Below the pieces are notes generated by a model, which worked only from the letters and a program-made list of their open reading frames with translations, made no database searches and was not told the origin of the DNA. This document shows, piece by piece, positions 32,001 to 54,915 of a DNA stretch of 64,000 bases. Within the stretch, counting starts at the first letter, position 1, and every line of letters starts with the position of its first letter. The DNA is from Deltaproteobacteria bacterium (GTDB lineage: Bacteria > Myxococcota > UBA727 > VGSZ01), in the NCBI GenBank assembly GCA_020850995.1, contig JADZDP010000177.1, positions 4,712-68,711 on the forward strand, read 5' to 3'. The translations under genes and the position numbers were made by a program.

Positions 32001-32867
32001 TCAGCTCGAGCAGTTGTTGGCCGCTGGGCTGCAAATGCCGACGTCGACCGGGAGCTGGAAGCTGCCGCCGGCGAAGCCACAACAGAGCTCGTCGCTGCCG
32101 CAGTCGTCGGTGCTCACGCACACCACCGCGTCGGTCTGACCGGCCTGCACGCAGCTGCCGGCGCTGACGCAGCTCGTCGCGTTGGTGGCGCCGTCGAGGC
32201 AGCACTCTTCGCTGAGCTCGCAGTCCTCGGCGCCGTCACAGACCACCGGCACGGCGAGGAGCGCGCCCGTGCAGCTGCCGCTGGACGCGATGCAGTTGCC
32301 GACGATGGCGAAGCTGACGTCGACGGTGACGCAGCAGACCGCGTTGGGGTCGCTGCAGGTGGTGGCGTCGCAGACCACGCCCGCCTCAGCGGAGCCCTCG
32401 TACTCTTGCCCCTGCACGAGCTCGCACGCGAGGCCGCTGCACACCTCGTTGCTCTCGCAGGGCACGATCACGGGGTCGCCGGCGGCGTTGCAGGTGCGCT
32501 CCGCCGACACGCTCTCGCAACCCGGCACGCACTCGCCCTCGCCCTCGCCCTCGCCGGGGTCGCCCTCGCCCTCGCCCTCGCCGGGGTCGCCCTCGCCCTC
32601 ACCCTCACCCTCACCTTCGCCCGCGGGCTCGCAGTCGCCGTCGTCGCACTCCTCGTCGTCGTCGCAGTCGCGGTCGCGCTCGCACTCCACGCACTCGCCG
32701 TCGACGCACAGGTTGTCGCCGAAGCAGTCGCTGGCTTGCGTGCAGTCGCCGGGCGCCAGGAAGAGGCCGCACGAGAGCGCCAAGGGTGCGAGCGCGAGCA
32801 GGAGCGTGAGCACGCCCACGCGGGCAGGCACGGGTGAGCGGACGGGGACGGGGTGCATCTTGGTCAT
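32001..32867 (-). CDS. Secreted Cys-rich lipoprotein with (GE)n linker (paralog of 54220..54915)
   Basis: Lipobox LALSC; GEGEGEGEGDPGEGEGEGDPGEGEGEGE; about 40 Cys in conserved spacing (ECVPGCE...ERTC...CDGAEDCE..EECC.DG...CGFAGG.F.LPVD.G.C.PAANNCS). Confidence 0.65.
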   Translation of the reverse strand: MTKMHPVPVRSPVPARVGVLTLLLALAPLALSCGLFLAPGDCTQASDCFGDNLCVDGECVECERDRDCDDDEECDDGDCEPAGEGEGEGEGEGDPGEGEGEGDPGEGEGEGECVPGCESVSAERTCNAAGDPVIVPCESNEVCSGLACELVQGQEYEGSAEAGVVCDATTCSDPNAVCCVTVDVSFAIVGNCIASSGSCTGALLAVPVVCDGAEDCELSEECCLDGATNATSCVSAGSCVQAGQTDAVVCVSTDDCGSDELCCGFAGGSFQLPVDVGICSPAANNCSS

Positions 32868-32897
32868 GGGACACCCTCGGAGGGACGGGGCGGAGTG

Positions 32898-32987
32898 GCG
32901 GAGAGAGAGGGATTCGAACCCTCGAGACGGTTTCCCGCCTACGCGATTTCCAGTCGCGTGCCTTCAGCCACTCGGCCATCTCTCCAC
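32898..32987 (-). tRNA. tRNA-Ser (anticodon GGA)
   Basis: Reverse complement reads GGAGAGATGGCCGAGTGGCTGAAGGCACGCGACTGGAAATCGCG...long variable arm...GGGTTCGAATCCCTCTCTCTCCGCCA, a class II cloverleaf. Coordinates approximate to 1 nt. Confidence 0.85.
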
Positions 32988-33102
32988 AGGCACCGCCGGG
33001 ACGCCGCTCATCTAGCGGATCTTTTTCCGCGCGTCGACGCCCACGGTTGAGGGCCCTGCGCCAGCGTTGACGACACCCGTGGTGCTGGCTACCTTGGTCA
33101 GC

Positions 33103-33192
33103 GGACAGCTGGCCGAGTGGCTGAAGGCACCTGACTCGAAATCAGGAGTACCCGCAAGGGTATCGGGGGTTCGAATCCCTCGCTGTCCGCCA
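33103..33192 (+). tRNA. tRNA-Ser (anticodon CGA)
   Basis: GGACAGCTGGCCGAGTGGCTGAAGGCACCTGACTCGAAATCAGG...GGGGGTTCGAATCCCTCGCTGTCCGCCA, divergent from the other tRNA-Ser. Coordinates approximate to 1 nt. Confidence 0.85.
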
Positions 33193-33263
33193 TCTTTCTC
33201 GACGACAAACCGCTTCGCAGCACACAAGGGCACACCCCTTGCTGCGCAGTGGTTTTCGCGCCC

Positions 33264-33338
33264 TCTGACTGGGTATCTGACAGGGAGCGGCTCGTGACGA
33301 TGACGTCTTGCCGCCGAGACAGGGTGTTTGACAGGGAA
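33264..33338. repeat. Direct-repeat motif copies (TCTGACTGGG, TCTGACAGGGAG, TTTGACAGGGAA) upstream of the NTase operon
   Basis: 33271-33286 gggtatctgacaggga; 33322-33338 gggtgtttgacagggaa. The same two motifs recur fused at 37712-37737. Confidence 0.5.
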
Positions 33339-33393
33339 AGGCCGCGAGATCGAGACTCTAGTTTTCTCGCTTCGGGAATGTTATGATCTAGAT

Positions 33394-33855
33394 ATGACGC
33401 TCGACAACGCAACCCTTCGCGACGCGTTGACCGCCCTCGGTGAGCTCCTCGTCGACCGCGGTGAGACCTACGACATCGTCGTCATCGGAGGCGGTGCATT
33501 GTTGCTCGGCGGCCACATCGAGCGGCCGACGAAGGATCTCGACGTCCTCGCGCGCATCGAGGGTGATCGCTGGCTCAGCGCGCAGCCGCTGCCCGATGCG
33601 CTGCGCGCCGCCGTCGCCGATGTCGGCGACGCGTTCGGGCTCGCGCGTGACTGGCTCAACTGCGGGCCGACGTCCCTGCTCGCGGGCGGGCTCCCCGACG
33701 GCTTCCCGGAACGGTTGAGCATCGAGCGTTTCGACGCGCTGACGCTCCTCACATCGGCGCGGTGGTGCCGCACGCACGATGCCTCCGAGGGCTTTCGCGG
33801 GCGGCAGCTTCTGCCGGTGCTGCAAGAGCTCGGTGTCGAGGTCGCCGATGTCTAG
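33394..33855 (+). CDS. Nucleotidyltransferase-fold (pol-beta superfamily) small protein
   Basis: hG[GS]-x13-DhD pattern (VVIGGGALLLGGHIERPTKDLDVLARI). Start taken as ATG 33394; the TTG start of the table ORF (33328) lies inside the repeat motif. Translationally coupled to the next gene. Confidence 0.5.
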   Translation: MTLDNATLRDALTALGELLVDRGETYDIVVIGGGALLLGGHIERPTKDLDVLARIEGDRWLSAQPLPDALRAAVADVGDAFGLARDWLNCGPTSLLAGGLPDGFPERLSIERFDALTLLTSARWCRTHDASEGFRGRQLLPVLQELGVEVADV

Positions 33856-34786
33856 CGCCGTCCAGAAGCAGGCCGCGGATCTCGCTTGGAGCCTCTGGAC
33901 GGAGCTCGGCATCGCCGGCGTCGTGCGGGAGCATGCCCACGTGGCAATCGATCCCGAGCCGCTCTTCGTCGCCACGCCGCTCCTTGCAGCGCACGACGCG
34001 CGCCTGCTCGAACAGGTGTCACGTTGGAGCGTGCTCTTCGGCGACTGGCTCGCGATGAGCCGAGTGCAGGCGCTGTGCAAGGCGGCGGAACCCACCGTGC
34101 ATGACGCGTTCGTGTCCTTCGCCGCGTCGATCCCCGGTGGGGGGCGGTGGACGTGTGAGGCCACGAAGATGTCGAAGCAGAAGAACCCGCCGCAGCTGAC
34201 GTCGATGGAGCTGCCGCTCTTGCGACCGGCGCTGGTCCGGCTGCGCCTGCGCGCGATATGCGGCGTCGGTGCACGCGCCGACGTCGTCGCAGAGCTCATC
34301 GGGCACGCGCGCGTATGGTTGCGTGCGTCCGACTTCGAGCATCTCGGCTACACGAAGAGAAACGTCGCTCGCTTGCTGTCCGAGCTCTGCGACGCCGGGT
34401 TTCTGCGGTCGCTGAAGGAGAAGAACGCGATCGCCTATCGCCTCGCCGACGGCGGGCGGTGGTCTGACCTCGTCGGCGCCACGGCCGTCACGTGGCCGGC
34501 ATGGCCCGCAATCTTCGACTTCGCCCGGTTGGCGCTGCGGCTCGATGGGGAACGTGCGAAGAGCGAAGGCGTGCGCCGGGTCGCGGCGGCCCAGACAGCG
34601 CACGCGCTCGAGCCGCTTTGCGATCGCTTGGACCTCGCGCAACCGCCGACCGCGACGGCGAATCCCCAGGCGTGGGCCGCAACGACCGCGTTCGTGGAGC
34701 GCGAGGTGGCAGCCTTCGCGGGCGCGACGTCGCCGTCGATGTCGCGTGCCGGCGGAGCTCGCGGCCGCGTCAGTGCCGCGCGTTGA
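33848..34786 (+). CDS. Hypothetical protein with predicted winged-helix segment, partner of the NTase-fold gene
   Basis: ATG 33848 overlaps the NTase stop. TKRNVARLLSELCDAGFLRSLKEKNAIAYRLAD resembles a wHTH. One Rx5H (RASDFEH) occurrence is noted but not diagnostic. Confidence 0.45.
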   Translation: MSSAVQKQAADLAWSLWTELGIAGVVREHAHVAIDPEPLFVATPLLAAHDARLLEQVSRWSVLFGDWLAMSRVQALCKAAEPTVHDAFVSFAASIPGGGRWTCEATKMSKQKNPPQLTSMELPLLRPALVRLRLRAICGVGARADVVAELIGHARVWLRASDFEHLGYTKRNVARLLSELCDAGFLRSLKEKNAIAYRLADGGRWSDLVGATAVTWPAWPAIFDFARLALRLDGERAKSEGVRRVAAAQTAHALEPLCDRLDLAQPPTATANPQAWAATTAFVEREVAAFAGATSPSMSRAGGARGRVSAAR

Positions 34787-34831
34787 TCGCGTCGCGCCGC
34801 GTCGCCGTGTCGACGAAACGGCGCTCACTCG

Positions 34832-35935
34832 TCAGCGTCCACATACCGGGCACGCAAGCCGCCCTTGCGCCGATGGCGCGCATCGTTCGCAAAGCAGGTG
34901 GATCTTGTCGTCGCATACCGCGGGGCGAGCGGCAGGGAGCAGGCAGCCGTCGCACGCAGGCACGTCGAGCGTGCGCGCGGCCGAGGGGAGGTGCAGGCTC
35001 AGCACGCGCTCCTCCTTCCGTCGACGCACGCGCACGTCGACGACGATCGTGGGCACTTCGACGACGGCGGCGAAGACGATCGTCGCGCGCGCACGCAACG
35101 TGTAGCGGGCGCGCAACTCCGCCAACTTCGCCGCGCGCTCATTCTCGAGATGTTCGACGCGGGCTTTGACCGCCGCCGGATCACGTTGCTTGCGACCGGT
35201 ACGCGTTTCGTAGATGAGCTCGTGAAAGTACGCATCGACGCGCTCGTGGTCGCGCCGGTGCCGGCGGGCGACGTTGTCCTGATGTGCGCCGGCGAGCGCG
35301 GCCAGCCGGGCGCGCAGCCGGGGCGGGAGGACCTCCGCGCGCACCGCAGGGAGGGCGCGGTGCGCTCCACGAAGCGCGCTCGTGGTGTCGAGCGCGAGCG
35401 CCGCGACCAGGGCCGAGTCCGGCGCGGCGCCGTCCGATGCGCACAACGCCAGCACCTCGAACGCCTCGTCGCGGTCGTCCGCCTCGACGACGAGGCGCGT
35501 GCCGACGAACGCGTACGCCTCGTTGCGAGCGCGTACCGCGCCGACGTCGACAACCGCGTTGCGCAGCGCGAAGCGGGCCGCGAGCGCCTCGGCCTGGCTC
35601 GCGCGCGGTGCCGCCAGCTCTGCGTCGGCGACGACGTACCCACGCAGCGACGAGCGCTCATCGACCAACCGATCGAGGAGCCCGGTCCCGAGCCCGCACG
35701 CAACGGCCCCTGTCCGTGCGGCTGACGCGACCTGCACCTCCTCCTGGAGCGCGAGCCGGGTGGCCAACGCCGACGGGAGGATCGCGAGGGCCTCCTCCTC
35801 GCCGTCGGCTGCGTTGGCGACCTCGACGAGCGCGCCGTCGCGCGCGAGGGCGTCCGCGCAGAAGCGCACGGGGCTCGGCAGTGTCGCCGGCAGTGTCGCC
35901 GGCAGTGTCGTCGGCAGCGCGGGCAGCGAGGTCAT
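34832..35935 (-). CDS. Hypothetical protein with C-terminal Cys-rich Zn-ribbon-like tail, co-operonic with SNF2 helicase
   Basis: C-terminus VPACDGCLLPAARPAVCDDKIHLLCERCAPSAQGRLACPVCGR (8 Cys + 1 His). The 4-nt overlap (35932-35935) with the upstream helicase gene implies coupling. Confidence 0.5.
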   Translation of the reverse strand: MTSLPALPTTLPATLPATLPSPVRFCADALARDGALVEVANAADGEEEALAILPSALATRLALQEEVQVASAARTGAVACGLGTGLLDRLVDERSSLRGYVVADAELAAPRASQAEALAARFALRNAVVDVGAVRARNEAYAFVGTRLVVEADDRDEAFEVLALCASDGAAPDSALVAALALDTTSALRGAHRALPAVRAEVLPPRLRARLAALAGAHQDNVARRHRRDHERVDAYFHELIYETRTGRKQRDPAAVKARVEHLENERAAKLAELRARYTLRARATIVFAAVVEVPTIVVDVRVRRRKEERVLSLHLPSAARTLDVPACDGCLLPAARPAVCDDKIHLLCERCAPSAQGRLACPVCGR

Positions 35936-37626
35936 GCGGCGAAGTCCTCGCCGAACACCGCGTCGTCGAGCTTCTTGGAGTTCTCGTACGTTCCGCGCGC
36001 CGCGCCGATCTCCGCCGCGAGCGCGTCGAAGCCACGGTCGATCTCCGCCTCGTCCTTGCTGGCGGCGTAGAGCGCGAGCACGCGCTCCTCGAGGTCGCGG
36101 TCATCGGCGAGGTTGCCGAGCACCATGTCCATCTCGCCGACGACGAGCTCGAACAGATGGAGCCGCCGATCGAGCACGTCGAGCAGCTTCTCCTCCGCCG
36201 ACCCCTTCATCGCGAGGTTGTAGACGTGCACGTCGCGCGTCTGGCCCATGCGGTGGACGCGGCCGATGCGCTGCTCGAGCAGCATCGGGTTCCACGGCAC
36301 GTCGAAGCTGACGACGACGTTGCAGTGCTGCAGGTTGGTCCCCTCGGCGCCGACGTCGGTGGACACGAGGGCGCAGCGCTCCTCGCGGAACCGCTCGACG
36401 GCGAGCGCCTTCTCGTCGGCCGACTGCGCGCCAGAGACCACGACGTGCCGCACGCCAGCGTCGTTGAACGCGCGCTCGATCGCCGCCAGCGTCGCGCGGA
36501 AGCGCGTGAACACCAGCGCGTGCCCGCCGTGCGCCCGCACCAATGCGACCAGCTGCTCGAGCTTCTTCGTCTGCGTCGCGGCCCGTGCCGCCTCGCGGGC
36601 AGCGGCGAAGGCGGGACCGTCGAGCGCGGTCGCGCGGTCAAGCGTGGCGCGCACGGCGTCAGGGCTCGAGCCCGCCTCGAGGAGCAGCGTGGTGCCGAGG
36701 AGCGTTCGCCGCGCGGCCTGCGCGTCGGCGCGCACGAGATCGACGACCCGATCGTAGAGCGCGCGCTCCGCGGCCAGCGGCTCGACGACGGCGGTGGTCA
36801 CGAAGCGCGGCGGCAGCTTCAAGCCGCACGCCGCGCGCGTGTTGCGCACCATGACGTCCCCAAGCAACTGTCGCAGCCGCTCGCGGTTCTTCGGCGAAGT
36901 CGGATCGGACTTGTCGACGAACTGCGCCTTGAACGCCGACGCCGTCGTGAGCTGGCCCGGCCGCAGCAACGTGACGAGCGCGTACAGCTCCTCGAGGCTC
37001 GTCTCGATCGGCGTGGCGGTGAGCAGCAGCAGGAAGCGGCTCTTCAGGCCGTCGACGAGCTTGTAGCCGAGGGTAGACTGCTTCTTGATGTGGTGGGCCT
37101 CGTCGACGACGACGAGATCCCACGAAGCGCTCTGGAGCAGTGGCGCGACTTTGGCGCCGCGCGCCTTGGCGAGCGACGCGAGCACGACACCGTCCCTCGC
37201 GAGGAACGCCGCCGGGTCTTGTTCGAAGGCGTGGTCATCGAGCGTCGCGGCCTGCACTCCGGCCTTCGCGAGGAGCTCGCCCCGCCACTGCGGAACGAGC
37301 GCCGGCGGTGCGATCACGAGGGTGCGGCGCGCCATGCCGCGCAGTTGGTACTCGCGCAGCACGAGGATCGCCTCGACGGTCTTGCCGAGCCCGACCTCGT
37401 CGGCGAGGAGCGCACGGCCGCGGAGCACGCGGAGCACGCGCCGGACGGTGTCGTGCTGGTAGGTGTGCGCGTCGACGCCGGCGAGCGACTGTGGCGAGAG
37501 CAGGTCGGTGAACGTCGCGGCCGACGCGAGGGTGTGCGCGCGCACCGCGAGCGAGAGGTCGACGAGCGTCATGGGCGCGCGCAGCAGCGCTGTGACGTCG
37601 CCCGTCGTCACGTCGGCGATCTCCAT
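35932..37626 (-). CDS. Compact SNF2-family (HepA/RapA-like) helicase/ATPase
   Basis: Motif I DEVGLGKT; motif II DLVVVDEAHHIK; motif III LLLTATP; C-terminal helicase motifs ...TDVGAEGTNLQ... and RIGRVHRMGQ; 564 aa. Confidence 0.8.
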   Translation of the reverse strand: MEIADVTTGDVTALLRAPMTLVDLSLAVRAHTLASAATFTDLLSPQSLAGVDAHTYQHDTVRRVLRVLRGRALLADEVGLGKTVEAILVLREYQLRGMARRTLVIAPPALVPQWRGELLAKAGVQAATLDDHAFEQDPAAFLARDGVVLASLAKARGAKVAPLLQSASWDLVVVDEAHHIKKQSTLGYKLVDGLKSRFLLLLTATPIETSLEELYALVTLLRPGQLTTASAFKAQFVDKSDPTSPKNRERLRQLLGDVMVRNTRAACGLKLPPRFVTTAVVEPLAAERALYDRVVDLVRADAQAARRTLLGTTLLLEAGSSPDAVRATLDRATALDGPAFAAAREAARAATQTKKLEQLVALVRAHGGHALVFTRFRATLAAIERAFNDAGVRHVVVSGAQSADEKALAVERFREERCALVSTDVGAEGTNLQHCNVVVSFDVPWNPMLLEQRIGRVHRMGQTRDVHVYNLAMKGSAEEKLLDVLDRRLHLFELVVGEMDMVLGNLADDRDLEERVLALYAASKDEAEIDRGFDALAAEIGAARGTYENSKKLDDAVFGEDFAA

Positions 37627-37711
37627 GGGCGGCGGCTCGACGCCAGCACCTCATCGCGAACGCGCGTCGCCATCGCCGCCGAGTAGCTGAAACGGCGGGC
37701 CGTTGCGATCC

Positions 37712-37737
37712 GGTTTGACAGGGAATCTGACAGGGTA
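37712..37737. repeat. Second copy of the TTTGACAGGGAA + TCTGACAGGG motif pair (same orientation), ~85 nt upstream of the helicase start
   Basis: ggtttgacagggaatctgacagggta; compare 33264-33338. Confidence 0.5.
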
Positions 37738-43344: not shown

Positions 43345-44925
43345 TCAGTGGCCCGTCAGCTTGATGTTGGCCTTGTCGAGCATCATCTTGAAGCTGGTGC
43401 GATCGACGGACTTCGCGAACGCGTCGTCGGGCGCGACCACGCCCTCCCTGACGTGCGCGAACAAGGCGTCGTTGAGGGTCTGCATGCCGATCTGCTTTTG
43501 CGTTTGCATCATGCTCGGGATCTGGAAGGTCTTGCCCTCGCGGATCAGGTTGGCCACCGCGGTGTTGCACACCAGGATCTCGAGCGCGGCCACGCGCCCG
43601 CCCCCTACCTTCTTGCACAGCGTCTGCGCGATCACGCCCTTGAGCGACTCCGACAGCATCATGCGCACCTGCTCCTGCCGGTCGGTGGGGAACTGATCGA
43701 TGATGCGGTCGATGGTCGACACCGCCGTGGTCGTGTGCAGCGTGCCAAACACCAGGTGGCCGGTCTCGGCGGTCTCGATGGCGATGCCCACGGTCTCGAG
43801 GTCGCGCATCTCGCCCACCAGCACGATGTCGGGGTCTTCGCGCAGGGCCGCGCGCAGCGCCGCCGAGAAGCTCATGGTGTCGACGTGCACCTCGCGCTGG
43901 TTCACCAGGCAGCTCTTGGTCTCGTGCACGAATTCGACAGGGTCTTCGATGGTGATGATGTGGTCGGTGCGCGAGCGGTTGATCCAGTCGACCATGGCCG
44001 CGAGCGTCGTCGACTTGCCCGAGCCCGTGGGCCCGGTGACGACGACGAGCCCCTTGTGCAGCGAGCAGAAGTCCTTGACCACGTTCGGCAGCTTGAGGTC
44101 CTCGAAGGTCAGGATCTTCGAGGGGATGACGCGCAACACGCCAGACACACCGCGCCGATCCTTGAAGGCGTTGACGCGGAAGCGCGCGATGCCGGGCAGC
44201 TCGTAGGCGTAGTCGGCGTCGTTGCTCTTCTCGAACTTCTCGCGCGCGGCCAGCGGTGCCACCTCCATCAACATGGCGCGGATGGCGTCGGACGACAGCG
44301 TTGCCTCGAAGCCAGGGACGAGGCTGATGTCGCCGTCTTTGCGCATGCGCGGCTGCATGTTGGCGGTGATGTGCAGGTCCGAGGCCTTGTTCTGCACCAG
44401 CGCATGCAGCAGCGGATCGATCTGCTTGCGTGCGCCAGCGGCCATCGCCGGCGCGGGCGTGGGCGGCGCCGCCGCGACCAGCGGCTGAGGCGGGGCCTCG
44501 GGCGGCGCGGGCGGCGCGGGCGGCGCGGGCGTGGGCGGCGCTGGGCGCGCGGCAGCCGGCGGCGGCGGCGCGGGCGGCGGCGGCGTCGACGGCGTGGGTG
44601 GGGAGGGCGTCACAGTCGCGCCGGCCTGCGCCGGCCGGATGAGCGCATCGAGGCGCCCCTGGTAGCGGCGCAGGTGCGCGGTCACCGGGCCGCCGGCGTC
44701 GAAGGTGAAGGTGGCGTCGCCGTCGCTGGTGAAGCCGTAGTCGACCTCGGGCGGCACCACGTCTTTGAGGATGGCCTGGATCTGATCTGCGCGCACCGGC
44801 TGGGCCAAGAGCACCTTCATCTGCTGGCCGCTGCGCAGCCGGATGGGCTGCCCGGTGACGAACAGGATCTCCTCCCCCTCTCCTCGACGAACCGCGGCGA
44901 TGAAGCGATCGATGGGACGCAGCAT
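43345..44925 (-). CDS. pilT: PilT-family (type IV pilus retraction-like) ATPase with ~120-aa N-terminal extension and Pro/Ala-rich linker
   Basis: Walker A GPTGSGKSTT; PilT motifs DIVLVGEMRD and GHLVFGTLHT. Start trimmed to M92 of the table ORF (MLRPIDRF...). Confidence 0.8.
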   Translation of the reverse strand: MLRPIDRFIAAVRRGEGEEILFVTGQPIRLRSGQQMKVLLAQPVRADQIQAILKDVVPPEVDYGFTSDGDATFTFDAGGPVTAHLRRYQGRLDALIRPAQAGATVTPSPPTPSTPPPPAPPPPAAARPAPPTPAPPAPPAPPEAPPQPLVAAAPPTPAPAMAAGARKQIDPLLHALVQNKASDLHITANMQPRMRKDGDISLVPGFEATLSSDAIRAMLMEVAPLAAREKFEKSNDADYAYELPGIARFRVNAFKDRRGVSGVLRVIPSKILTFEDLKLPNVVKDFCSLHKGLVVVTGPTGSGKSTTLAAMVDWINRSRTDHIITIEDPVEFVHETKSCLVNQREVHVDTMSFSAALRAALREDPDIVLVGEMRDLETVGIAIETAETGHLVFGTLHTTTAVSTIDRIIDQFPTDRQEQVRMMLSESLKGVIAQTLCKKVGGGRVAALEILVCNTAVANLIREGKTFQIPSMMQTQKQIGMQTLNDALFAHVREGVVAPDDAFAKSVDRTSFKMMLDKANIKLTGH

Positions 44926-45416
44926 CAGCGCTTCTCCTCGAGCGGCACGACCGTGAGGATCGAGGTCGAGCTCAACAGGTAGACGTGATCGTCGGTGCGC
45001 AAGGGGAAGAAGGACTCGAGCTTCTCGAGATAGTCGCCGAGCCGATTGGTGGGGGAGGGCATCGCGTAGCGGACGCTGCCTTCCACGCGCGTGCCGTCTG
45101 CCATGGTGACCAACACCCGCGCCACCGACGAGGCCTCGCTGTCCTCCGCCTCGGCGTCGAGCTCGTCGATGGCGGCGAGCAGGTCGAGGCGCGCCCACGC
45201 CAGGTGGCGCGTGGCCACGAACACCACGCGCTCGGCGGTCTTGAGCGGCACGAACCAGCGCTGCGCGAGCACGTCGAGCAGGCGCTCGCCGCGGTCCTCG
45301 TCGCCCCTGGGACGCAGGAACACCTCGCCGCGCAACAGCTCGCCGCGCGTGGTGGCCATCTCGACCGCGACGGTCTCTTTCCTGATGATCAGCCCGGCAT
45401 CATTGGTGTCGCTCAC
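44925..45416 (-). CDS. Hypothetical protein immediately upstream of and overlapping the PilT-like gene start
   Basis: 163-aa ORF; its stop overlaps the pilT-like start; no domain recognised. Confidence 0.4.
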   Translation of the reverse strand: MSDTNDAGLIIRKETVAVEMATTRGELLRGEVFLRPRGDEDRGERLLDVLAQRWFVPLKTAERVVFVATRHLAWARLDLLAAIDELDAEAEDSEASSVARVLVTMADGTRVEGSVRYAMPSPTNRLGDYLEKLESFFPLRTDDHVYLLSSTSILTVVPLEEKR

Positions 45417-45493: not shown

Positions 45494-46591
45494 GTGCGCC
45501 TCCTCCCGCTCGCTGCGCTCTCGTGCTGCGCCCTCGTGCTCTCCTGCGAGAGCGTGGTGGGGGTCGGCGACGCCTGCGACGACGATGGCGACTGCCGCAC
45601 CATCTGCGTCGACGGCTACTGCACCATCATCGAGGGCGAGGGGGAAGGCGAGGGCGAGGGGGAAGGAGAAGGCGACGGGGAAGGAGAAGGCGACGGGGAA
45701 GGTGAGGGCGAGGGGGAAGGCGAAGGTGAAGGTGAAGGTGAGGGCGAGGGGGAAGGAGAAGGCGAGGGGGAAGGCGAGGGCGAGCCCTTCGTGGCACGCA
45801 GTTGCCAAGAGCTGCTCGCGTACGACGCAGGCACGGTGAACGGCAGCTACCCCTTCGACTTCGACGGCGACGGCGCCTACGACGACCTCGACGGCGACGG
45901 CCTCGACGTGAACGACGTGGTCCCCTGCGAGATGGCGCGCGCCGGCGGCGGCTGGACCAACGTGGTGCGCCTGAGCGACATCGCCGCCTGCCCTGGCGAC
46001 TGGCAGCTCATCGTCGCCACCAACTTCTCGGGGTGCCAGCGCAACCAGGGCGGCGCGGGGACGCGCTCGGCGACCTTCAGCCCGCGCGTGCCCTGGACCG
46101 ACGTGCGCGGCGGCGCCACCGCCATCGTCTACGGCGACGGCGACGCCTTCAACGACGAGCAGGGGCGCTCCATCGACTCGTACTACGTCGATGGCGTCAG
46201 CGTGACCACCGCAGCGCCACGGCAACACCTGTTCACCTTGGTGGCCGGTCACCCCGAAGACGCGCCGTCTTCCGACTGCCCGTGCAACGGCGGTCAGCCG
46301 CCGCCCGCCTTCGTCGAGGACAACTTCGCGTGCGACGAGCCTGGGCCCGACTGTCGACCCGGCGGCGGGCGCGCGTGGGGACCAGCAGATCCGCTCTGGG
46401 ACGCCACCTGGGACGGCGTCGACACCATGTGCCTGCCCGCCGACGCGGCCAAGATCGACGGGGGCCTCTTCGTGCGCACCGGCGTCAACGCGACGCCCGC
46501 GGCCACCGCCATCGAGGTGCGCATCAGCCACGACCAGGGCTCGAGCGACGAGGACCTGGCCATCACGGCGCTGGAGCTGTGGGTGCGCTGA
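45494..46591 (+). CDS. Secreted lipoprotein with (GE)n linker; C-terminal domain with GGGWT motif
   Basis: GTG start; lipobox ALVLSC; 60-residue (E/D)G array; GGGWTNVVRL is reminiscent of fibrinogen-related domains (weak). Confidence 0.55.
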   Translation: MRLLPLAALSCCALVLSCESVVGVGDACDDDGDCRTICVDGYCTIIEGEGEGEGEGEGEGDGEGEGDGEGEGEGEGEGEGEGEGEGEGEGEGEGEGEPFVARSCQELLAYDAGTVNGSYPFDFDGDGAYDDLDGDGLDVNDVVPCEMARAGGGWTNVVRLSDIAACPGDWQLIVATNFSGCQRNQGGAGTRSATFSPRVPWTDVRGGATAIVYGDGDAFNDEQGRSIDSYYVDGVSVTTAAPRQHLFTLVAGHPEDAPSSDCPCNGGQPPPAFVEDNFACDEPGPDCRPGGGRAWGPADPLWDATWDGVDTMCLPADAAKIDGGLFVRTGVNATPAATAIEVRISHDQGSSDEDLAITALELWVR

Positions 46592-49871: not shown

Positions 49872-50032
49872 GGCAGCCTCGAGGGGTTGACCAGGAGGTT
49901 TTCGCTGACCGCAAGGTCGCCGTTCTCCCTTCAGCGCGATCTGGCCTCGGTCAGCCGCCTGATCTGCCGCGGATCACATCTCGTACATCATCCCACAGGC
50001 GATACTCTCCAGGTCCCCTCCCGGGAGGCCCC

Positions 50033-50929
50033 GTGCTCGCAGAAGACCGCAAGGCGCTGATCACCATCACGCTCACCGCCGCTGACGCCGCCTACGCCGA
50101 CCGCGGCCTGAGCTTGGCCGCGCAGGCCTACGAGGACGCCGCGCGCCTGGCGCAAGATCAGGGCGACCACCTGGCGCGCGCCCGCGCGCTCTTTGGCGCC
50201 GGGCAGGTGTGCCGCGAGCGCGACCAGCAGGCGAGCGCCGCCGTGCACTTCGCCGACGCGCTGGCGGCGTTCCTCGCCGCCGGCGACGAACAAGCCGCGG
50301 CGCGCGCCTTGGCCGGCGTCACCGCGCTGGCCGCCGACCCGCGCGCCCTGGTGGTGCACCGCGCCCTCGCCTTTGCGCGCGCGCTGGCCCCTGGCGACGA
50401 CGCCGACGCCTTCGCCCGCGCCGGCGACGAGGTGCTGCGCCTGCTCAAGGGCGCCGCCGCCGAGCCCGTCATCGACGCCGCGCTCAGCCTGTGCACGCAA
50501 GCGCTCACCGTAGAGCGCGCCGACCTGAGCGCGCGCTGGCTGTTCTCGGCCGCGGGCTCGTTGCGCGCCTTGGCCGCGCGTGGGCCCGACCCACGCGTGG
50601 CGCGCGCCTCCGATCTCCTCTCGCGCACGCTCGGCTTGGCCCGCGTGTCGGCGGGCGAGGGCGACGCAGACGACGCGTGGGCCTTCGCGCTGGCCGAGCT
50701 TGGCGCCGAGCTCGGCGACCGCGCCCTCGACGAGCTGCGCCGCCTGCGCGCGCACCTGCAGCGCGCGCGCCTCTTGGTGGAGGGCGGTCGGCCTGCCCAG
50801 GCGCTGCAAAGCGCCAAGCAGGCCTTCGTGCTGGCGCGGAGCGCCCTGGGCGACGAGGACCCGGTGACCCAAGAGGCCCTGGCGCTGCGCACCCAGGCGG
50901 CCCAGGCGGCCCCGGCAGCCCGCGCCTGA
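50033..50929 (+). CDS. Ala-rich helical repeat (TPR-like) hypothetical protein
   Basis: Repetitive A..A..L.A..G pattern. Confidence 0.35.
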   Translation: MLAEDRKALITITLTAADAAYADRGLSLAAQAYEDAARLAQDQGDHLARARALFGAGQVCRERDQQASAAVHFADALAAFLAAGDEQAAARALAGVTALAADPRALVVHRALAFARALAPGDDADAFARAGDEVLRLLKGAAAEPVIDAALSLCTQALTVERADLSARWLFSAAGSLRALAARGPDPRVARASDLLSRTLGLARVSAGEGDADDAWAFALAELGAELGDRALDELRRLRAHLQRARLLVEGGRPAQALQSAKQAFVLARSALGDEDPVTQEALALRTQAAQAAPAARA

Positions 50930-51035
50930 GCCCACCGATCGCGAGCTCCGGGGCTGGCGGGGGCGCACCAGGGCAAATTGACGCACCGTGACGTGACGCA
51001 TTGACAAATTTGTCAAAAGGCGTCCACGCTGTGAC

Positions 51036-53003
51036 ATGACGCGCCCCACCTCGACCAACTTCTTCCTCGACAACGACGACCTGCGCTTCCAGCTCTCCCG
51101 CGTCGACTGGGCGACGCTGGTGTCGTTGCAGGAGGCGGCCTTCGCCGACGAGGACGGCTTCAAGGATCCCGCGGAGGCGCGCGCCTTCTACGAGGACGTG
51201 TTGTCGAACCTGGGCGAGTTCGTGGCGCGCGAGATCGCCGCCCACGAGCACGAGCTCGATACCCAGCACCCCGAGCTCAAGGACGGCGAGGTGGTGCCGC
51301 CGCCGCGCATGAAGAAGATCCTCGACCAGATGCAGGCCCTGGGCGCGCTCTCGCTCACGTTGCCGCGTCGCCTGGGCGGCTCCAACGTGCCGATCCTGGT
51401 GCAGAACGTGTTGGTCGAGCTGGTCACGCGCGCCGACGCCAGCGTGGCCGCCGAGTTCGGCTTCTACTCGGGCATCGGCCAGGCGCTGCTCTTCTACTCG
51501 ATGGAAGAGGGCAGCGTGGAGATCAAGGACGGCGTGCCGGTGAAGACCCGCTTCGACGACGTGGTGCGCCGCATCGCCGAGCACCAGGAGTGGGGCGCCA
51601 TGGTGCTTACCGAGCCCGGCGCCGGCAGCGATCTTGGGCAGATCAAGGCCAAGGCTGTGCTCTCGCCCGACGGCAGCTGGCGCGTCACCGGGCAGAAGAT
51701 CTTCATCACCGCCGGTCACGGCGATCACCACATCGTCATCGCGCGCTCGGAGGAAGAGGGCACGCACCCGGGTCTCAAGGGCCTGTCGCTCTTCTACGTG
51801 CCCCGCTTCGTCGACGCGCAGGGCCAGCGCTGCAAGAAGAGCGACCCCGGGGCCAAGCGCAACTTCGACATCGGCGGCGTCGAGCACAAGATGGGTCAGC
51901 ACTCGGCGGTGGCCGCCACCATCAACTACGAAGACTCGAGGGCCGAGCTGCTCGGCCAGCGTGGCCACGGCTTCCTCGGCATGTTGATGCTGATGAACAA
52001 CGCGCGCATCAGCGTGGGCTTCGAGGGCATCGGCACCTGCGAGACCGCCTATCGCATGGCGCGCGCCTACGCCGAGGAGCGCGTCACCATGGGCAAGCCC
52101 ATCGCGCGCCACGAGATGATCGCCGACGAGCTCGACGAGATGGAGGTGGTGATCCGCGGCCTGCGTGCCATCACCTTCGAGGCCGCCTTCCACGAGGAGG
52201 TGAGCGCGCGCCTCAAGCTCATGAGCAAGGTGAAGCCCGAGGCCACCGAGGAGGCGAAGAAGGAGACCGAGAAGAAGGTGCGCCGCCACAAGCGCAAGGC
52301 GCGCGCGCTCACGCCGCTCATCAAGTACTGGGCGGGCGAGGAGTGCGTGCGCATGGCGCGCATGTGCATGCAGATCATGGGAGGCGTCGGCTACATCACC
52401 GAGACCGGCGCCGAGAAGATCTTGCGCGACGCGCTGGTCATCCCCGTCTACGAGGGCACCAGCCAAATCCAGGCGCTGATGGCGCTGAAAGACAACCTGC
52501 AGGCGGCCATCAGGAACCCCACGCGCTTCCTCTCCGAGCTCGCCACCGCGCGCTTGGAGACCCTGTCGGCGCGCGCCGAGCTCGAGAAGGGCGAGGCGCG
52601 CCTGCGCCACCACGCCATGAGCGCCATGCAGACCATCATCACGCGCATCGCGGCCGACAAGCTCGGCGACGTGCGCGGGCGCCCCTTGGCCGAGTGGAAG
52701 AGCGCCTTCATGAAGGACTGGGATCCGCAGAAGGACTTCTCGTTCGGTCTGTTGCACGCCGAGCGTTTGACCAAGCTGCTCACCTGGTCGGCGGTGGCCG
52801 AGACCCTGGTGCGCCAGGCCAACGAGGTGAAGGGCACGGCCGACTACGAGGAGCGCGCGGCGCTGGCCTTGCGCTTCATCGAGCGCTTCGAGCCCCGCGC
52901 GCGCGGCGTGGTGGCCGAGATCGAGGCCACCGGCGGCTCGCTCATCGGGCGCGTGTTGGCGCGGCCCAGGCGCGAACGCGCCGCGGCCAAGGCGGCGGAG
53001 TAG
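51036..53003 (+). CDS. Acyl-CoA dehydrogenase (long, ~650 aa FadE-like form)
   Basis: ACAD motifs: TEPGAGSDLG; ...GMLMLMNNARISVG..; YEGTSQIQ. Confidence 0.85.
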   Translation: MTRPTSTNFFLDNDDLRFQLSRVDWATLVSLQEAAFADEDGFKDPAEARAFYEDVLSNLGEFVAREIAAHEHELDTQHPELKDGEVVPPPRMKKILDQMQALGALSLTLPRRLGGSNVPILVQNVLVELVTRADASVAAEFGFYSGIGQALLFYSMEEGSVEIKDGVPVKTRFDDVVRRIAEHQEWGAMVLTEPGAGSDLGQIKAKAVLSPDGSWRVTGQKIFITAGHGDHHIVIARSEEEGTHPGLKGLSLFYVPRFVDAQGQRCKKSDPGAKRNFDIGGVEHKMGQHSAVAATINYEDSRAELLGQRGHGFLGMLMLMNNARISVGFEGIGTCETAYRMARAYAEERVTMGKPIARHEMIADELDEMEVVIRGLRAITFEAAFHEEVSARLKLMSKVKPEATEEAKKETEKKVRRHKRKARALTPLIKYWAGEECVRMARMCMQIMGGVGYITETGAEKILRDALVIPVYEGTSQIQALMALKDNLQAAIRNPTRFLSELATARLETLSARAELEKGEARLRHHAMSAMQTIITRIAADKLGDVRGRPLAEWKSAFMKDWDPQKDFSFGLLHAERLTKLLTWSAVAETLVRQANEVKGTADYEERAALALRFIERFEPRARGVVAEIEATGGSLIGRVLARPRRERAAAKAAE

Positions 53004-53009
53004 CGCCCG

Positions 53010-53483
53010 CTACTTATGGTACGGGCCGCCGCGCGCGATCTCGGCGGCCCGGTAGAGCTGCTCGCACAGCACGCACACGGCGAGGCGGTGCGCCAGCGTC
53101 AGCGACGACAGCGACCACACCTCGTCGGCCGCGTCGGTGACGCGCGCGTGCAGGCCGGTGGCGCCGCCGATCAAGAACGCCAGCGGCTTGCCGCGCGCCA
53201 GCAGCTTCTCGAGGCGCGCCGCCAGCGCCTCCGACGAGGGAAACGCGCTGCCACCGGCGTCGAGCGCCACGCGCGTGCACCCCTCGGACGCGGCCAAGAG
53301 GCGCTCGGCCTCGTCGCCCTTCACGCGCGCGTCGTCGGCGCCTTTGCCGCGCTTGGCAGGAGCGAGCGCCACCAGGCCGGCGTCGAGGCGCCGGCCGGCG
53401 CGCTCGAGGTAGGCCGCCGCCGCTTGCTGCAGCGGGTCGCGCGCGTCCTCACCGAGGAAGATCACGCGGCAGCGCTGCCTCAT
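53010..53483 (-). CDS. rlmH: 23S rRNA (pseudouridine1915-N3)-methyltransferase
   Basis: SPOUT C-terminus LAFLIGGATGL...WSLSSLTLAHRLAVCVLCEQLYRAAEIARGGPYHK; start MRQRCRVIFLGE (M64 of table ORF); ATGA overlap with rsfS. Confidence 0.8.
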   Translation of the reverse strand: MRQRCRVIFLGEDARDPLQQAAAAYLERAGRRLDAGLVALAPAKRGKGADDARVKGDEAERLLAASEGCTRVALDAGGSAFPSSEALAARLEKLLARGKPLAFLIGGATGLHARVTDAADEVWSLSSLTLAHRLAVCVLCEQLYRAAEIARGGPYHK

Positions 53484-54190
53484 TCGTTGGCGGCGAAGGC
53501 CGGGCTCTCGTCGGCATCGGCGCGGGCGGCGGCCTCGAGCGCTGCGTAGCGCTTCAGGCCGACGGCTTCGTCGACTGGCACGTGCGCTGCGTCTTGCCAG
53601 AAGCCCTCGAGGTCGTAGTACTGCCGCGCGCTGCCCAAGAACACGTGCAGCACCACGGCGCCGTAGTCGCACAGCACCCAGTGGCCCTGCTCGAGCCCCT
53701 CGGTGCCGAAGCTGCCCTTGCCGGCGCGCTTCATCTCTTCAGCCACGTGGCGCGCGATGGCCTGCACCTGCCGCTCGCTCGGCGCCGACGCGAGCACGAA
53801 GTAGTCGGCATAGCTGGTCAGCTCGGTGACGTGCAGGATGACGACGTCCTCGGCCTTCTTGGCCAGGGCAAGCGCGGCCAGCACCTGCGCGAGCAGCTCG
53901 GTGGGGTCGGGCGGCGCCCGTGGCGCCGGTGGGGCGGGCGCGAGCACGACGGCGGGCTTCAAGGCTGCGGGCTTGTTGGCCGCGCCTTTGGCGCGCGCGG
54001 GCGCCTTCGTGCTCTTGGGGCGCGCCTTGCTGGCCTTCACCCTCGTGCCGCCCTTCGCGGGCTTGGCGGCGGGTGCGCTCTTCTTGCTCTTGCCGGCGGC
54101 CTTGGTGGTGGCCTTCGTCGCGGCCTTCTTGGCGGGCTTCTTGGTGGAACGCGAGGGCGCAGTCGCTGCGCGCTTCTTCTTGGCCGGCAC
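53480..54190 (-). CDS. rsfS: Ribosomal silencing factor RsfS (Iojap) with Lys/Ala-rich N-terminal extension
   Basis: C-terminal core DVVILHVTELTSYADYFVLASAPSERQVQAIARHVAEEMKRAG...GHWVLCDYGAVVLHVF. Start uncertain (non-ATG; set to about 54190 to avoid overlap with the upstream gene). Confidence 0.7.
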   Translation of the reverse strand: MPAKKKRAATAPSRSTKKPAKKAATKATTKAAGKSKKSAPAAKPAKGGTRVKASKARPKSTKAPARAKGAANKPAALKPAVVLAPAPPAPRAPPDPTELLAQVLAALALAKKAEDVVILHVTELTSYADYFVLASAPSERQVQAIARHVAEEMKRAGKGSFGTEGLEQGHWVLCDYGAVVLHVFLGSARQYYDLEGFWQDAAHVPVDEAVGLKRYAALEAAARADADESPAFAANE

Positions 54191-54219
54191 TGGTGCTCCT
54201 GACGTTGAACGCGCGGCCC

Positions 54220-54915
54220 TTAGAGGCTGCAGTTGTTGGCGGCGGGCGCGCAGGTGCCCAGGTCGACGGGCAGCTCGAACATGCCGCCGGCGAAGCCACA
54301 GCACAGCTCATCGGCGTTGCAGTCGTCGGTGGTGATGCACACCACCGAGTCGGTCTGGCCCGCCTGGGTGCAGGTGCCGGCAGCCACGCAGCTCGTCGAG
54401 AAGGTGTCGCCGTCGATGCAGCACTCTTCGCCAACCTCGCAGTCTTCGGCGCCGTCGCAGGCGAGGGGGATCGCAGCCAGCCCCCCCACACAGGCGTCAC
54501 CAGGCTCGATGCAGGTGCCGACGATGCCAGCGTTGACGGTCACGCAGCAGGTCGTGGCCGGGTCTGCGCAGGTGGCGGCGTCGCACACGACGCCGTCCTC
54601 GGCGGTGCCGCTGTACTCCTCGCCTTGGATGACCTCGCACGCGGTGCCCGTGCAGGCCTCGTTTTGCGCGCAGGGCGCGATCACGGGGTCGCCGTCGGCG
54701 TCGCAGGTGCGCTCGCTCTGCGGCGTCTCGCAGCCGGGCACGCACTCGCCCTCGCCCTCGCCCTCGCCTTCGCCCTCACCCTCGGTGCCCGCGTCCAGCA
54801 CGTCGACGCCGGCGTCGTCGTCGTCGTCGTCGTCGCTGCCGGGGGGCGGGCAGGCGGCCAGGCCGATCAGCAGGGTGGGCAGGGCGAGCACGAGCAAGCG
54901 CAGGTCGAAGGTCAT
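54220..54915 (-). CDS. Secreted Cys-rich lipoprotein with poly-Asp/(GE)n linker (paralog of 32001..32867)
   Basis: MTFDLRLLVLALPTLLIGLAAC; DDDDDDD and GEGEGEGEGEGE; roughly 65% identity with the other paralog over ~170 aa. Confidence 0.65.
   Translation of the reverse strand: MTFDLRLLVLALPTLLIGLAACPPPGSDDDDDDDAGVDVLDAGTEGEGEGEGEGEGECVPGCETPQSERTCDADGDPVIAPCAQNEACTGTACEVIQGEEYSGTAEDGVVCDAATCADPATTCCVTVNAGIVGTCIEPGDACVGGLAAIPLACDGAEDCEVGEECCIDGDTFSTSCVAAGTCTQAGQTDSVVCITTDDCNADELCCGFAGGMFELPVDLGTCAPAANNCSL

What the first reader, a model, noticed from the sequence alone, without database searches (positions are those of the whole stretch)
32001..54915. Family of four secreted lipoproteins with (Gly-Glu)n or poly-acidic tethers placed right after the lipobox; two are ~65%-identical Cys-rich paralogs 22 kb apart
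869..2830, 32001..32867, 45494..46591 and 54220..54915 all start with lipobox, then a 20-60-residue run of (GE)n (with DPGE or poly-Asp variants) encoded by GAAGGN tandem repeats, then a Cys-rich globular region. The 32001 and 54220 proteins share an identical Cys scaffold (~34-40 Cys; ECVPGCE...CDGAEDCE..EECC...CGFAGG.F.LPVD.G.C.PAANNCS). The acidic low-complexity tether may act as a flexible or Ca2+-binding spacer holding a disulfide-rich head away from the membrane. The repeat length is likely hypervariable between strains because of slippage.
Basis: seen in the sequence. Interest (0 to 1): 0.5.

Follow-up and report, generated by a model that had tools for sequence, protein, structure and literature searches.

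The report
Acidic Gly-Glu stalks on myxobacterial lipoproteins
Four lipid-anchored exported proteins of an uncultured myxobacterium carry a floppy, strongly acidic Gly-Glu repeat stalk between the anchor and three unrelated kinds of head; two of the heads belong to a small, unnamed, cysteine-rich protein family whose predicted fold matches no solved structure.

Summary
All four ORFs (869-2830+, 32001-32867-, 45494-46591+, 54220-54915-) pass a PROSITE-type lipobox test. Each holds an in-frame (Gly-Glu)n tract encoded by tandem DNA repeats.

They are not one protein family. D carries three TIGR02232 myxobacterial Cys repeats. C has a weak fibrinogen-like GGGW domain. Only A and B are paralogs (66% identity over 175 residues, all 24 Cys aligned).

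A and B belong to an unnamed family found only in Myxococcota MAGs where a source is named. It has 47 representatives among 1.84 billion proteins and no Pfam or NCBIfam model. The core has 18 Cys in three six-Cys modules with a CDGPEDC hallmark. AlphaFold gives pLDDT 92.7, with no structural neighbour in the PDB.

Of 145 relatives, 119 have a lipobox followed by a low-complexity, nearly always acidic linker (median 52 residues). Only 13 use (GE)n. The array is therefore one flavour of the known disordered lipoprotein tether, not a family marker.

In A and C, small 4-Cys modules sit between the lipobox and the array.

The DNA shows slippage signatures, and array length differs between species. 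A 99%-identical strain variant has an identical array, so hypervariability is not supported.

The parts
32001..32867 (-). Gene A, 288-aa lipoprotein: signal plus lipobox, two 4-Cys mini-modules, (GE)n linker, 24-Cys head
   Evidence: ORF and translation. Identical to NCBI MCC7073818.1. Lipobox Cys33.
32769..32867 (-). A: signal peptide and lipobox (..LALSC, Cys33)
   Evidence: PS51257-type pattern match; coordinates.
32631..32747 (-). A: two small 4-Cys modules (DCx5DCx5CxDGxC type) lying between the lipobox and the array
   Evidence: Sequence. Conserved in orthologs L002 and L004. Sub-threshold DUF7107 hit, E 0.015.
32532..32630 (-). A: (GE)n linker with two Asp-Pro breaks, 33 residues; includes a 68-bp perfect tandem tract with a 27-bp period
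32004..32531 (-). A: Cys-rich head, made of a 6-Cys extension (residues 113-152) and an 18-Cys core of three six-Cys modules (153-288)
   Evidence: Alignments A1-A3. AF2 pLDDT 92.7. Internal repeat by hhalign.
54220..54915 (-). Gene B, 231-aa lipoprotein and paralog of A. It has no mini-modules: lipobox, then a Pro/Asp-rich stretch with Asp7, then (GE)6, then the same 24-Cys head.
   Evidence: The ortholog L003 starts at the same Met.
54745..54849 (-). B: 35-residue acidic linker (PPPGSDDDDDDDAGVDVLDAGT plus EGEGEGEGEGEGE)
54223..54744 (-). B: Cys-rich head, 66% identical to the head of A
45494..46591 (+). Gene C, 365-aa lipoprotein with a GTG start: lipobox Cys18, one 4-Cys mini-module, 51-residue (GE)n, 268-aa C-terminal domain with a fibrinogen-like C..GGGW motif
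   Evidence: NF040941 scores 24 bits against a cut-off of 30. Same architecture in metagenome locus L140.
45632..45784 (+). C: (GE)n array, 51 residues, 18-bp period at the DNA level
869..2830 (+). Gene D, 653-aa lipoprotein: lipobox Cys33, Pro/Glu-rich stretch, 51-residue (GE)n, then three TIGR02232/DUF4215 Cys-rich repeats separated by unannotated, Cys-poor domains
1019..1171 (+). D: (GE)n array containing a 71-bp perfect (GAAGGT)n tract built of codons that are rare in this genome

Best explanation
Shown: four separate genes encode Sec-exported, lipid-anchored proteins. They share an N-terminal build, not ancestry. The order is signal peptide with lipobox Cys, then in A and C one or two small 4-Cys modules, then a polyanionic (Gly-Glu)n low-complexity segment of 13-51 residues encoded by tandem DNA repeats, then a disulfide-rich head. 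The heads are of three unrelated kinds. A and B are old paralogs, kept as a pair in at least one related genome. Their head belongs to a small unnamed family of about 200-aa acidic lipoproteins, found in Myxococcota MAGs wherever a source is named. Its core is three six-Cys modules.

Inferred: after lipidation the proteins go to the outer membrane. The (GE)n segment acts as a sequence-independent, charge-expanded, disordered stalk. It is the local version of the N-terminal disordered linker that outer-membrane lipoproteins need for Lol handling. It also holds the head some 10-25 nm (contour length) away from the anionic membrane. Because only length and disorder matter, replication slippage makes and resizes the arrays, and relatives have swapped in other repeat types.

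The biochemical job of the A/B head is not known. The best guess is a binding or inhibitor module.
For: - Lipobox in all four; arrays in frame.
- Unrelated heads: D matches TIGR02232 at 94 bits against a cut-off of 20.8. C matches GGGWT_bact at 24 bits against 30. A and B match nothing.
- A/B paralogy. The pair is also present in MAG CAZONM01 (L003, L004), and the A-type gene keeps its synteny: tRNA-Ser upstream in the window, and DedA and CstA alongside.
- Family size: 47 representatives among 1.84e9 proteins; 179 proteins by profile search, all 'hypothetical', none with a precomputed Pfam domain. Named sources are Sandaracinaceae, Polyangia and Myxococcales MAGs.
- Linkers: 119 of 145 members have a lipobox plus linker, median 52 aa, composed of G 20%, D 15%, A 12%, S 9%, P 8.5%. 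Net charge is negative in nearly all. (GE)>=3 occurs in only 13; others use DAGP, TDSG, SDTD or PDAWSPTTTT repeats.
- Heads are acidic too: mean net charge -13 over 129 aa.
- The lipobox / mini-Cys module / (GE)n cassette is fused to unrelated heads in metagenome contigs and in another gene of L001 and L002.
- Slippage signatures and species-level length differences.
- Published rule that linker length and disorder, not sequence, govern Lol sorting; a Gly-Ser repeat linker works (10.1101/2021.01.05.425367).
- None of the four has Lys at +2, the M. xanthus inner-membrane signal (PMC3222651).
Against: - Localisation, lipidation and disorder are all inferred; no signal-peptide or disorder predictor was available and there is no experiment.
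- In A and C the array follows a folded mini-module, so there it is an interdomain linker rather than the membrane-proximal tether.
- (GE)n also occurs deep inside large secreted proteins (L113, L130, L055), so it is a general linker and not specific to lipoproteins.
- Only about 4 of roughly 11 candidate lipoproteins in the window have it.
- The strongly acidic character of both stalk and head across the family may have a function of its own that a pure spacer model ignores.
Confidence: 0.6

Rival explanations
1. The polyanionic stalk, and the acidic head, is a low-affinity, high-capacity Ca2+ or metal-binding element. It would act as a cation reservoir or a cation-dependent rigid rod at the envelope.
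For: - Stalks are pure Glu/Asp/Gly.
- Heads are also strongly acidic across the family: mean net charge -13, and 94% of cores are at or below -5.
- The CDGxEDC motif loosely recalls Ca2+-binding LDL-receptor class A modules; 2 of 30 members give weak LDLa hits.
Against: - Some relatives with the same head have almost uncharged Ser/Gly/Thr linkers (P0058, P0088, P0106), so charge in the stalk is not obligatory.
- LDLa hits are sub-threshold and absent for A and B.
- No binding data exist.
Confidence: 0.15
2. The acidic stretch after the lipid-modified Cys is a surface-export or vesicle-sorting signal analogous to the Bacteroidota lipoprotein export signal (LES). It would flip the proteins to the cell surface or into outer-membrane vesicles.
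For: - LES is a short, negatively charged motif just after Cys+1 (PMC5080379).
- In the A/B family, D/E frequency is 28-41% at +3 and +4 (24% at +5), and 'CGDDD'-type starts are common.
- D has Glu at +2, and B has an Asp7 run from +7.
Against: - LES is position-specific (+2 to +6) and known only in Bacteroidota.
- In A and C the array begins about 47 and 29 residues after the Cys, behind Cys modules.
- A starts GLFLAPGD, with no acidic residue before +8.
- No export machinery was identified near any of the genes.
Confidence: 0.12
3. The arrays are contingency loci: slippage-driven, strain-to-strain hypervariable tracts that vary a surface antigen or switch the genes on and off.
For: - Long perfect tracts: 71 bp in D, 68 bp in A.
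- Rare codons inside the arrays point to recent expansion.
- Lengths differ among species-level orthologs.
- Many metagenome contigs break inside such arrays.
Against: - All repeat periods (6, 18, 27 bp) are multiples of three, so slippage changes length and never the frame.
- A 99%-identical strain variant has an identical array.
- The B-type linker has the same length in two genomes.
Confidence: 0.08

Closest known systems
N-terminal intrinsically disordered linkers of E. coli outer-membrane lipoproteins (RcsF, NlpD, Pal; El Rayes et al., 10.1101/2021.01.05.425367)
   Same: A lipobox Cys is followed by a disordered linker of more than 22 residues and then a globular domain. The sequence is free, while length and disorder matter; an artificial Gly-Ser repeat works. 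The A/B family shows the same freedom of linker sequence.
   Different: Here the linker is a near-perfect polyanionic dipeptide repeat encoded by a DNA microsatellite. In A and C it sits behind a small Cys module rather than directly after the sorting residues. Any role in Lol sorting is untested.
Bacteroidota lipoprotein export signal (LES; PMC5080379, PMC6222051)
   Same: Negatively charged residues close to the lipidated Cys of outer-membrane lipoproteins.
   Different: LES is a 4-5 residue, position-specific motif (C-X-K-(D/E)2-X, or SDDDD) in another phylum. The arrays here are 13-51 residues long and lie at variable distance from the Cys.
TIGR02232 / Pfam DUF4215 'cysteine-rich acidic repeat' proteins of Myxococcales
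   Same: Protein D is a member, with three repeats scoring 94 bits against a cut-off of 20.8.
   Different: This applies to D only. A, B and C have no such repeat.
WAP 'four-disulfide core' domains (PF00095)
   Same: Each six-Cys module of the A/B core has the C-x5-C-x5-CC spacing. Seven of 30 family members give weak WAP hits, best E 4.7e-4.
   Different: There are six Cys per module, not eight. A and B give no WAP hit even at E <= 1. Fold searches find no WAP structure.
Trypanosome procyclins (EP/GPEET repeat coat proteins) - analogy from my own knowledge
   Same: Lipid-anchored surface proteins whose body is an acidic dipeptide repeat thought to form an extended stalk. The Pfam Trypan_PARP model gives low-complexity hits here.
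   Different: Procyclins are eukaryotic, GPI-anchored at the C-terminus, use Glu-Pro rather than Gly-Glu, and have no globular head. The Pfam hits (16-23 bits against a cut-off of 100) reflect composition only.
NF040941 GGGWT_bact fibrinogen-like YCDxxxxGGGW domain proteins
   Same: C has 'VVPCEMARAGGGWTNV' and a 24-bit match over the whole 46-position model. Metagenome locus L140 has lipobox, mini-module, (GE)n and a 'WCDNEIDGGGW' motif.
   Different: The score is below the curated cut-off of 30. The rest of the 268-aa domain has only two distant homologs and no PDB relative.

Membership tests
Bacterial lipoproteins (PROSITE PS51257-type signal) | Pattern {DERK}(6)-[LIVMFWSTAG](2)-[LIVMFYSTAGCQ]-[AGS]-C, with the Cys at about residue 15-35 and a K/R in the first 7 residues | tested here: met
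   A Cys33, B Cys22, C Cys18, D Cys33; all have K/R within residues 1-7.
Bacterial lipoproteins (PROSITE PS51257-type signal) | Actual diacylglyceryl modification and LspA cleavage | not testable with these tools
   Needs palmitate labelling, globomycin sensitivity or mass spectrometry.
Lipoproteins with an N-terminal intrinsically disordered linker (El Rayes et al.) | A segment of more than 22 residues without regular structure between the sorting residues and the globular domain | tested here: inconclusive
   Low-complexity two- to four-letter segments of 35 (B) and 68 (D) residues follow the Cys directly. In A and C a Cys module intervenes. No disorder predictor was available, and the full-length proteins were not modelled.
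Lipoproteins with an N-terminal intrinsically disordered linker (El Rayes et al.) | The linker is required for Lol-dependent outer-membrane targeting | not testable with these tools
   Requires deletion or replacement constructs and membrane fractionation.
TIGR02232 myxo_disulf_rpt / PF13948 DUF4215 (protein D) | Score above the curated cut-off | tested here: met
   TIGR02232 94.1 bits against 20.8, three stretches. DUF4215 62.7 bits against 27.
NF040941 GGGWT_bact (protein C) | Score above the curated cut-off of 30 bits | tested here: not met
   24 bits, E 2.9e-5, covering profile positions 1-46 of 46. The motif is present but membership is not established.
WAP four-disulfide core, PF00095 (A/B head) | Eight Cys in the WAP spacing and a Pfam match above the gathering score | tested here: not met
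LDL-receptor class A, PF00057 (A/B head, 'CDGxEDC') | Pfam match; six Cys plus the acidic Ca2+ cage | tested here: not met
   No hit for A or B. Two of 30 relatives hit at E about 0.02.
Bacteroidota LES-bearing surface lipoproteins | K/Q/S followed by at least two D/E at +2 to +6 after the Cys | tested here: not met
   Mature N-termini are A: GLFLAPGD; B: PPPGSDDD; C: ESVVGVGD; D: EPPVPEEP. The family shows only modest D/E enrichment at +3 to +5.
New 18-Cys 'CDGPEDC' lipoprotein family (A, B and relatives; unnamed) | About 130-aa C-terminal core with 18 conserved Cys in three C-x4-5-C-x5-6-CC-x(n)-C-x5-6-C modules, the start motif (E)YxGxxExGVxC, and CDG(P/A)EDC in module 2 | tested here: met
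   A and B hold every invariant column of alignments A2 and A3. Profile hits reach E 1e-29 to other members.

The most novel reading that the evidence does not exclude
The unit 'lipobox, then a 4-Cys hairpin module, then (GE)n' is a portable targeting-and-display cassette of Polyangia-type myxobacteria. A dedicated pathway would recognise it and place unrelated heads on the cell surface or in vesicles. One such head, the A/B 18-Cys domain, would be a new disulfide-rich fold acting as a surface-tethered binder or WAP-like protease inhibitor in a predatory, protease-secreting organism.
Probability: 0.15. Interest if true: 0.65.

Novelty: new variant of a known kind. Interest (0 to 1): 0.4.

Why it matters
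- It gives a natural example of the rule that lipoprotein tethers need length and disorder, not sequence. One conserved head is carried on many different low-complexity stalks, and one stalk type is carried by unrelated heads.
- It delimits an unnamed Cys-rich domain family found only in Myxococcota MAGs where a source is named. A confident structure model with no solved neighbour makes it a clean target for structural and functional work.
- It explains a practical annotation problem. (GE)n arrays break assemblies and cause mis-called starts, as in P0002, so these genes are under-represented in MAG protein sets.

Tried and rejected
- AF2 on a 3-sequence alignment gave an unusable model (pLDDT 41). 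It was replaced by the 61-sequence run.
A1 worked.
- The afdb50 fold library was unavailable. BFVD gave nothing.
- A PDB sequence search with the family profile gave no hit even at E <= 10.
- Exact-sequence look-ups of B, C and D, with every plausible start, found nothing. No strain variants could be compared for them.
- All-against-all BLAST of neighbouring ORFs in 20 loci found no partner gene shared beyond the close orthologs. Guilt by association is therefore not available.
- Pfam TrAA12, Trypan_PARP, ser_rich_anae_1 and 2A1904 hits fall on the GE tract and are composition artefacts.
- On/off phase variation is rejected because all repeat periods are multiples of three.
- The idea that GAA/GGT codons avoid G-quadruplexes was looked at briefly. 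G4-like motifs occur in the arrays of A and C and not in those of B and D. The result is not conclusive and was not pursued.
- A literature search for bacterial Gly-Glu repeat lipoproteins found only eukaryotic RPGR ORF15 and unrelated uses.
Full report
**What is in the sequence**

The window has 71% G+C. Protein A is identical to MCC7073818.1, a hypothetical protein of a 'Deltaproteobacteria bacterium' MAG.

- A: 32001-32867 (-), 288 aa
- B: 54220-54915 (-), 231 aa
- C: 45494-46591 (+), GTG start, 365 aa
- D: 869-2830 (+), 653 aa

A six-frame scan finds long Gly-Glu runs only in these four genes. The only other hit is a single three-unit GEGEGE at 58188-58205, which I did not examine. TRF reports tandem arrays at 1031-1161, 32528-32622, 45631-45784 and 54741-54784.

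All four N-termini match the PROSITE PS51257-type lipobox pattern, with Cys at residue 33, 22, 18 and 33 and a basic residue in the first seven. The refutation condition 'arrays fall outside the coding frame' is therefore not met.

**Where the description needs correcting**

1. In A the lipobox is followed by two small 4-Cys modules (residues 41-79, DCTQASDCFGDNLCVDGECVECERDRDCDDDEECDDGDC). In C it is followed by one (26-43, DACDDDGDCRTICVDGYC). Only then does the array begin. In B and D the low-complexity region does start right after the Cys: PPPGSDDDDDDD... in B and EPPVPEEPPEGDGDSPS... in D.
2. Array lengths are 33 (A, with two Asp-Pro breaks), 13 (B), 51 (C) and 51 (D) residues.
3. Cys counts are 33 and 25 for A and B, not 34-40.

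**Not one family**

Pfam and NCBIfam separate the heads:
- D has three TIGR02232 'cysteine-rich acidic repeat' / DUF4215 units (94 bits against a cut-off of 20.8).
- C has a sub-threshold match to the fibrinogen-like GGGWT_bact model (24 bits against 30).
- A and B match nothing.

Hits to TrAA12, Trypan_PARP and a serine-rich family lie on the GE tract and are composition artefacts.

A and B are true paralogs: 66% identity over 175 residues entirely outside the low-complexity part, with all 24 Cys aligned. The second refutation condition, 'similarity confined to low complexity', is also not met.

**The A/B head is an unnamed family**

*Size and distribution*
- A word-indexed search found only A itself and one relative.
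- An exhaustive HMMER search of 1.84 billion representatives found 47 at E <= 1e-3.
- A profile search of 5.8 billion clusters found 179. All are 'hypothetical' and none has a precomputed Pfam domain.
- Where a source names the organism, it is Sandaracinaceae, Polyangia, Myxococcales or 'delta proteobacterium' MAGs.

*Core*
- The conserved core is about 130 residues with 18 Cys.
- It begins (E)YxGxAExGVVCG and carries a CDG(P/A)EDC hallmark.
- It consists of three modules with the spacing C-x4-5-C-x5-6-CC-x(n)-C-x5-6-C.
- hhalign between the modules gives 73%, 71% and 35% probability.
- A, B and their close orthologs add a 40-residue, 6-Cys extension in front.

*Structure*
- AlphaFold2 failed with three sequences (pLDDT 41). 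With a 61-sequence alignment it gave pLDDT 92.7 and pTM 0.79, an all-beta model.
- Foldseek against the PDB gave nothing better than E 0.36 and TM < 0.2; the top hits are TNF-receptor-like Cys-rich rods.
- BFVD gave nothing. The family profile has no PDB sequence hit even at E <= 10. AFDB could not be searched.
- Seven of 30 members give weak WAP hits and two give weak LDLa hits. A and B give neither.

**The stalk seen through the family**

- Of 145 members with a recognisable core, 119 have a lipobox-like signal.
- The segment between the lipid Cys and the core has a median length of 52 residues. Its composition is G 20%, D 15%, A 12%, S 9%, P 8.5%, T 7%, E 5%. Its net charge is negative in almost every case.
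- Only 13 use (GE)>=3. Others use DAGP(GG), TDSG, SDTD, PDAWSPTTTT or Ser/Gly-rich repeats, and a few are nearly uncharged.
- The cores are also acidic: mean net charge -13, and 94% are at or below -5.
- Lys at +2 is rare. D/E reaches 28-41% at +3 and +4 (24% at +5).

One head is thus carried on many stalks. Conversely, in this genome one stalk type is carried by three head types. This is the pattern expected if the stalk is selected for length, disorder and usually charge, not for sequence. That is the published behaviour of the N-terminal linkers of E. coli outer-membrane lipoproteins, where a Gly-Ser repeat can replace the native linker (10.1101/2021.01.05.425367).

**A recurrent cassette**

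- The related contigs L001 and L002 carry another gene, about 443 aa in L001. It reads lipobox, then CTADEDCPDATRCVDGIC, then (GE)22 or (GE)18, then an unrelated domain. The window has no such gene at the corresponding position.
- A capped metagenome scan for (GARGGN)8 returned 120 loci. Many are in other reading frames or on low-GC contigs that may not be bacterial.
- Among the ORFs translated in the GE frame, I read 13 with a lipobox followed by (GE)n. Five of these have a 4-Cys mini-module in between (L054, L059, L106, L132, L140).
- Their heads are unrelated, including an alpha/beta hydrolase (L107) and MopE-type motifs (L030).
- L140 repeats the architecture of C, down to a GGGW motif.
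- (GE)n also occurs as an interdomain linker deep inside large secreted proteins (L113, L130, L055, L028). It is therefore a general linker and not a lipoprotein-specific signal.
- In the window, about 4 of roughly 11 candidate lipoproteins have it.

**DNA level and variability**

- Ordinary genes of the window use GAG for 95% of Glu and GGC for 78% of Gly.
- D's array uses GAA 22 times in 26 and GGT 13 times in 22. It contains a perfect 71-bp (GAAGGT)n tract.
- A has a perfect 68-bp tract with a 27-bp period, C 44 bp with an 18-bp period, and B 24 bp.
- Perfect tracts built of disfavoured codons are best explained by recent slippage or tandem duplication.

Among A-type orthologs, the linker between the mini-module and CVPGC measures:
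- 32 residues in the window
- 34 in L002
- 26 in L004
- at least 44 in L001, whose contig ends inside the array

The B-type linker is 35 residues in both genomes compared. A 99%-identical variant of A from another assembly (P0158) has exactly the same array. Exact look-ups for B, C and D found no entries, so no further strain comparisons were possible.

The conclusion is that the arrays change length over species-level time, while strain-level hypervariability is unsupported. All periods are multiples of three, so on/off phase variation is excluded.

**Surroundings**

The four genes are scattered and monocistronic-looking:
- D lies between a ClpS-domain gene and an unannotated gene.
- A lies between a tRNA-Ser and a PHA-granule-region gene, with DedA/VTT and CstA beyond.
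- C lies between an unknown gene plus a PilT-type ATPase on one side and an RRM protein on the other.
- B lies between RsfS and an MFS transporter.

A-type synteny (DedA, CstA and a 288-aa unknown) is kept in L001, L002 and L004. Distant family members share no neighbour. Context therefore gives no functional clue.

**Mechanism and its status**

*Shown:* the architecture, the paralogy, the family, the diversity of linkers, and the slippage signatures.

*Inferred from established knowledge:*
- Sec export, with Lgt, LspA and Lnt processing at the lipobox.
- Disulfide formation in the periplasm.
- Lol transport to the outer membrane. None of the four has Lys at +2, the M. xanthus inner-membrane signal (PMC3222651).
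- A charge-expanded stalk with a contour length of roughly 12-25 nm at about 0.36 nm per residue.

*Open:* the job of the A/B head. A binding or inhibitor module is the best guess.

*Rivals:* cation binding, an LES-like surface-export signal (PMC5080379), and contingency variation. Each is less well supported, for the reasons given under the rival explanations.

**Verdict**

This is a real and tidy feature. It is mostly an instance of a known principle, the disordered lipoprotein tether, in an unusual polyanionic, microsatellite-encoded form. It comes together with a previously undescribed Cys-rich domain family. Interest is moderate.

Noticed in passing
window 45785-46588 (C-terminal domain of C): The only homologs found (P0156, P0157; 33-36% identity) carry N-terminal signal-like sequences and motifs such as 'YCDMD..GW', 'DSYYVDGVSVTHG', 'PLWDG' and 'DDIEVRIC'. 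They look eukaryote-like and come from ENA assemblies. The domain may be shared between myxobacteria and some eukaryotes.
   Followed up: partly
window 1019-1171 and 45632-45784: The GE arrays use GAA and GGT, codons that make up only 5% and 7% of Glu and Gly codons in ordinary genes of this 71% G+C window. This is a strong local departure from the genomic codon bias.
   Followed up: yes
L001 6620-7951 (-) and the matching ORF in L002: Related MAGs carry a further lipoprotein with lipobox, 4-Cys module, (GE)22 or (GE)18 and a C-terminal domain containing 'YRTHCDMQRGGF'. The window has instead an unrelated lipoprotein at 26985-27698 (-).
   Followed up: partly
L001 1-140; many of L021-L140: Contigs very often end inside (GE)n arrays. 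The gene caller started P0002 at an internal Met downstream of an in-frame stop near the contig end. Such genes are therefore systematically truncated or mis-started in MAG annotations.
   Followed up: partly
window 53480-54304 (-): The RsfS ribosome-silencing-factor gene appears to have a long Lys/Ala/Pro-rich, histone-H1-like N-terminal extension, if the upstream start is used.
   Followed up: no
window 43345-45198 (-), tandem repeats at 44446-44598: A PilT/T2SSE-type ATPase carries a Pro/Ala-rich low-complexity N-terminal region encoded by 9- and 24-bp tandem repeats.
   Followed up: no
window 32896-32985 (-) and 33103-33192 (+): Two divergently oriented tRNA-Ser genes (GGA and CGA anticodons) lie directly upstream of gene A. 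In L002 and L004 the reading frame upstream of the A-type ortholog looks like translated tRNA sequence, which suggests the tRNA is conserved there; ARAGORN was not run on those loci.
   Followed up: partly
window 10-561 (+): The ClpS adaptor domain (residues 100-174) is preceded by an extra N-terminal region of about 100 residues. The ORF touches the start of the window, so its true start is unknown.
   Followed up: no
L113 5148-8198 (+): A 1017-aa metagenome protein has a (GE)n linker of about 50 residues joining two large repeated regions of unidentified function. This shows that the same linker is used between domains of secreted proteins, not only after lipoboxes.
   Followed up: no
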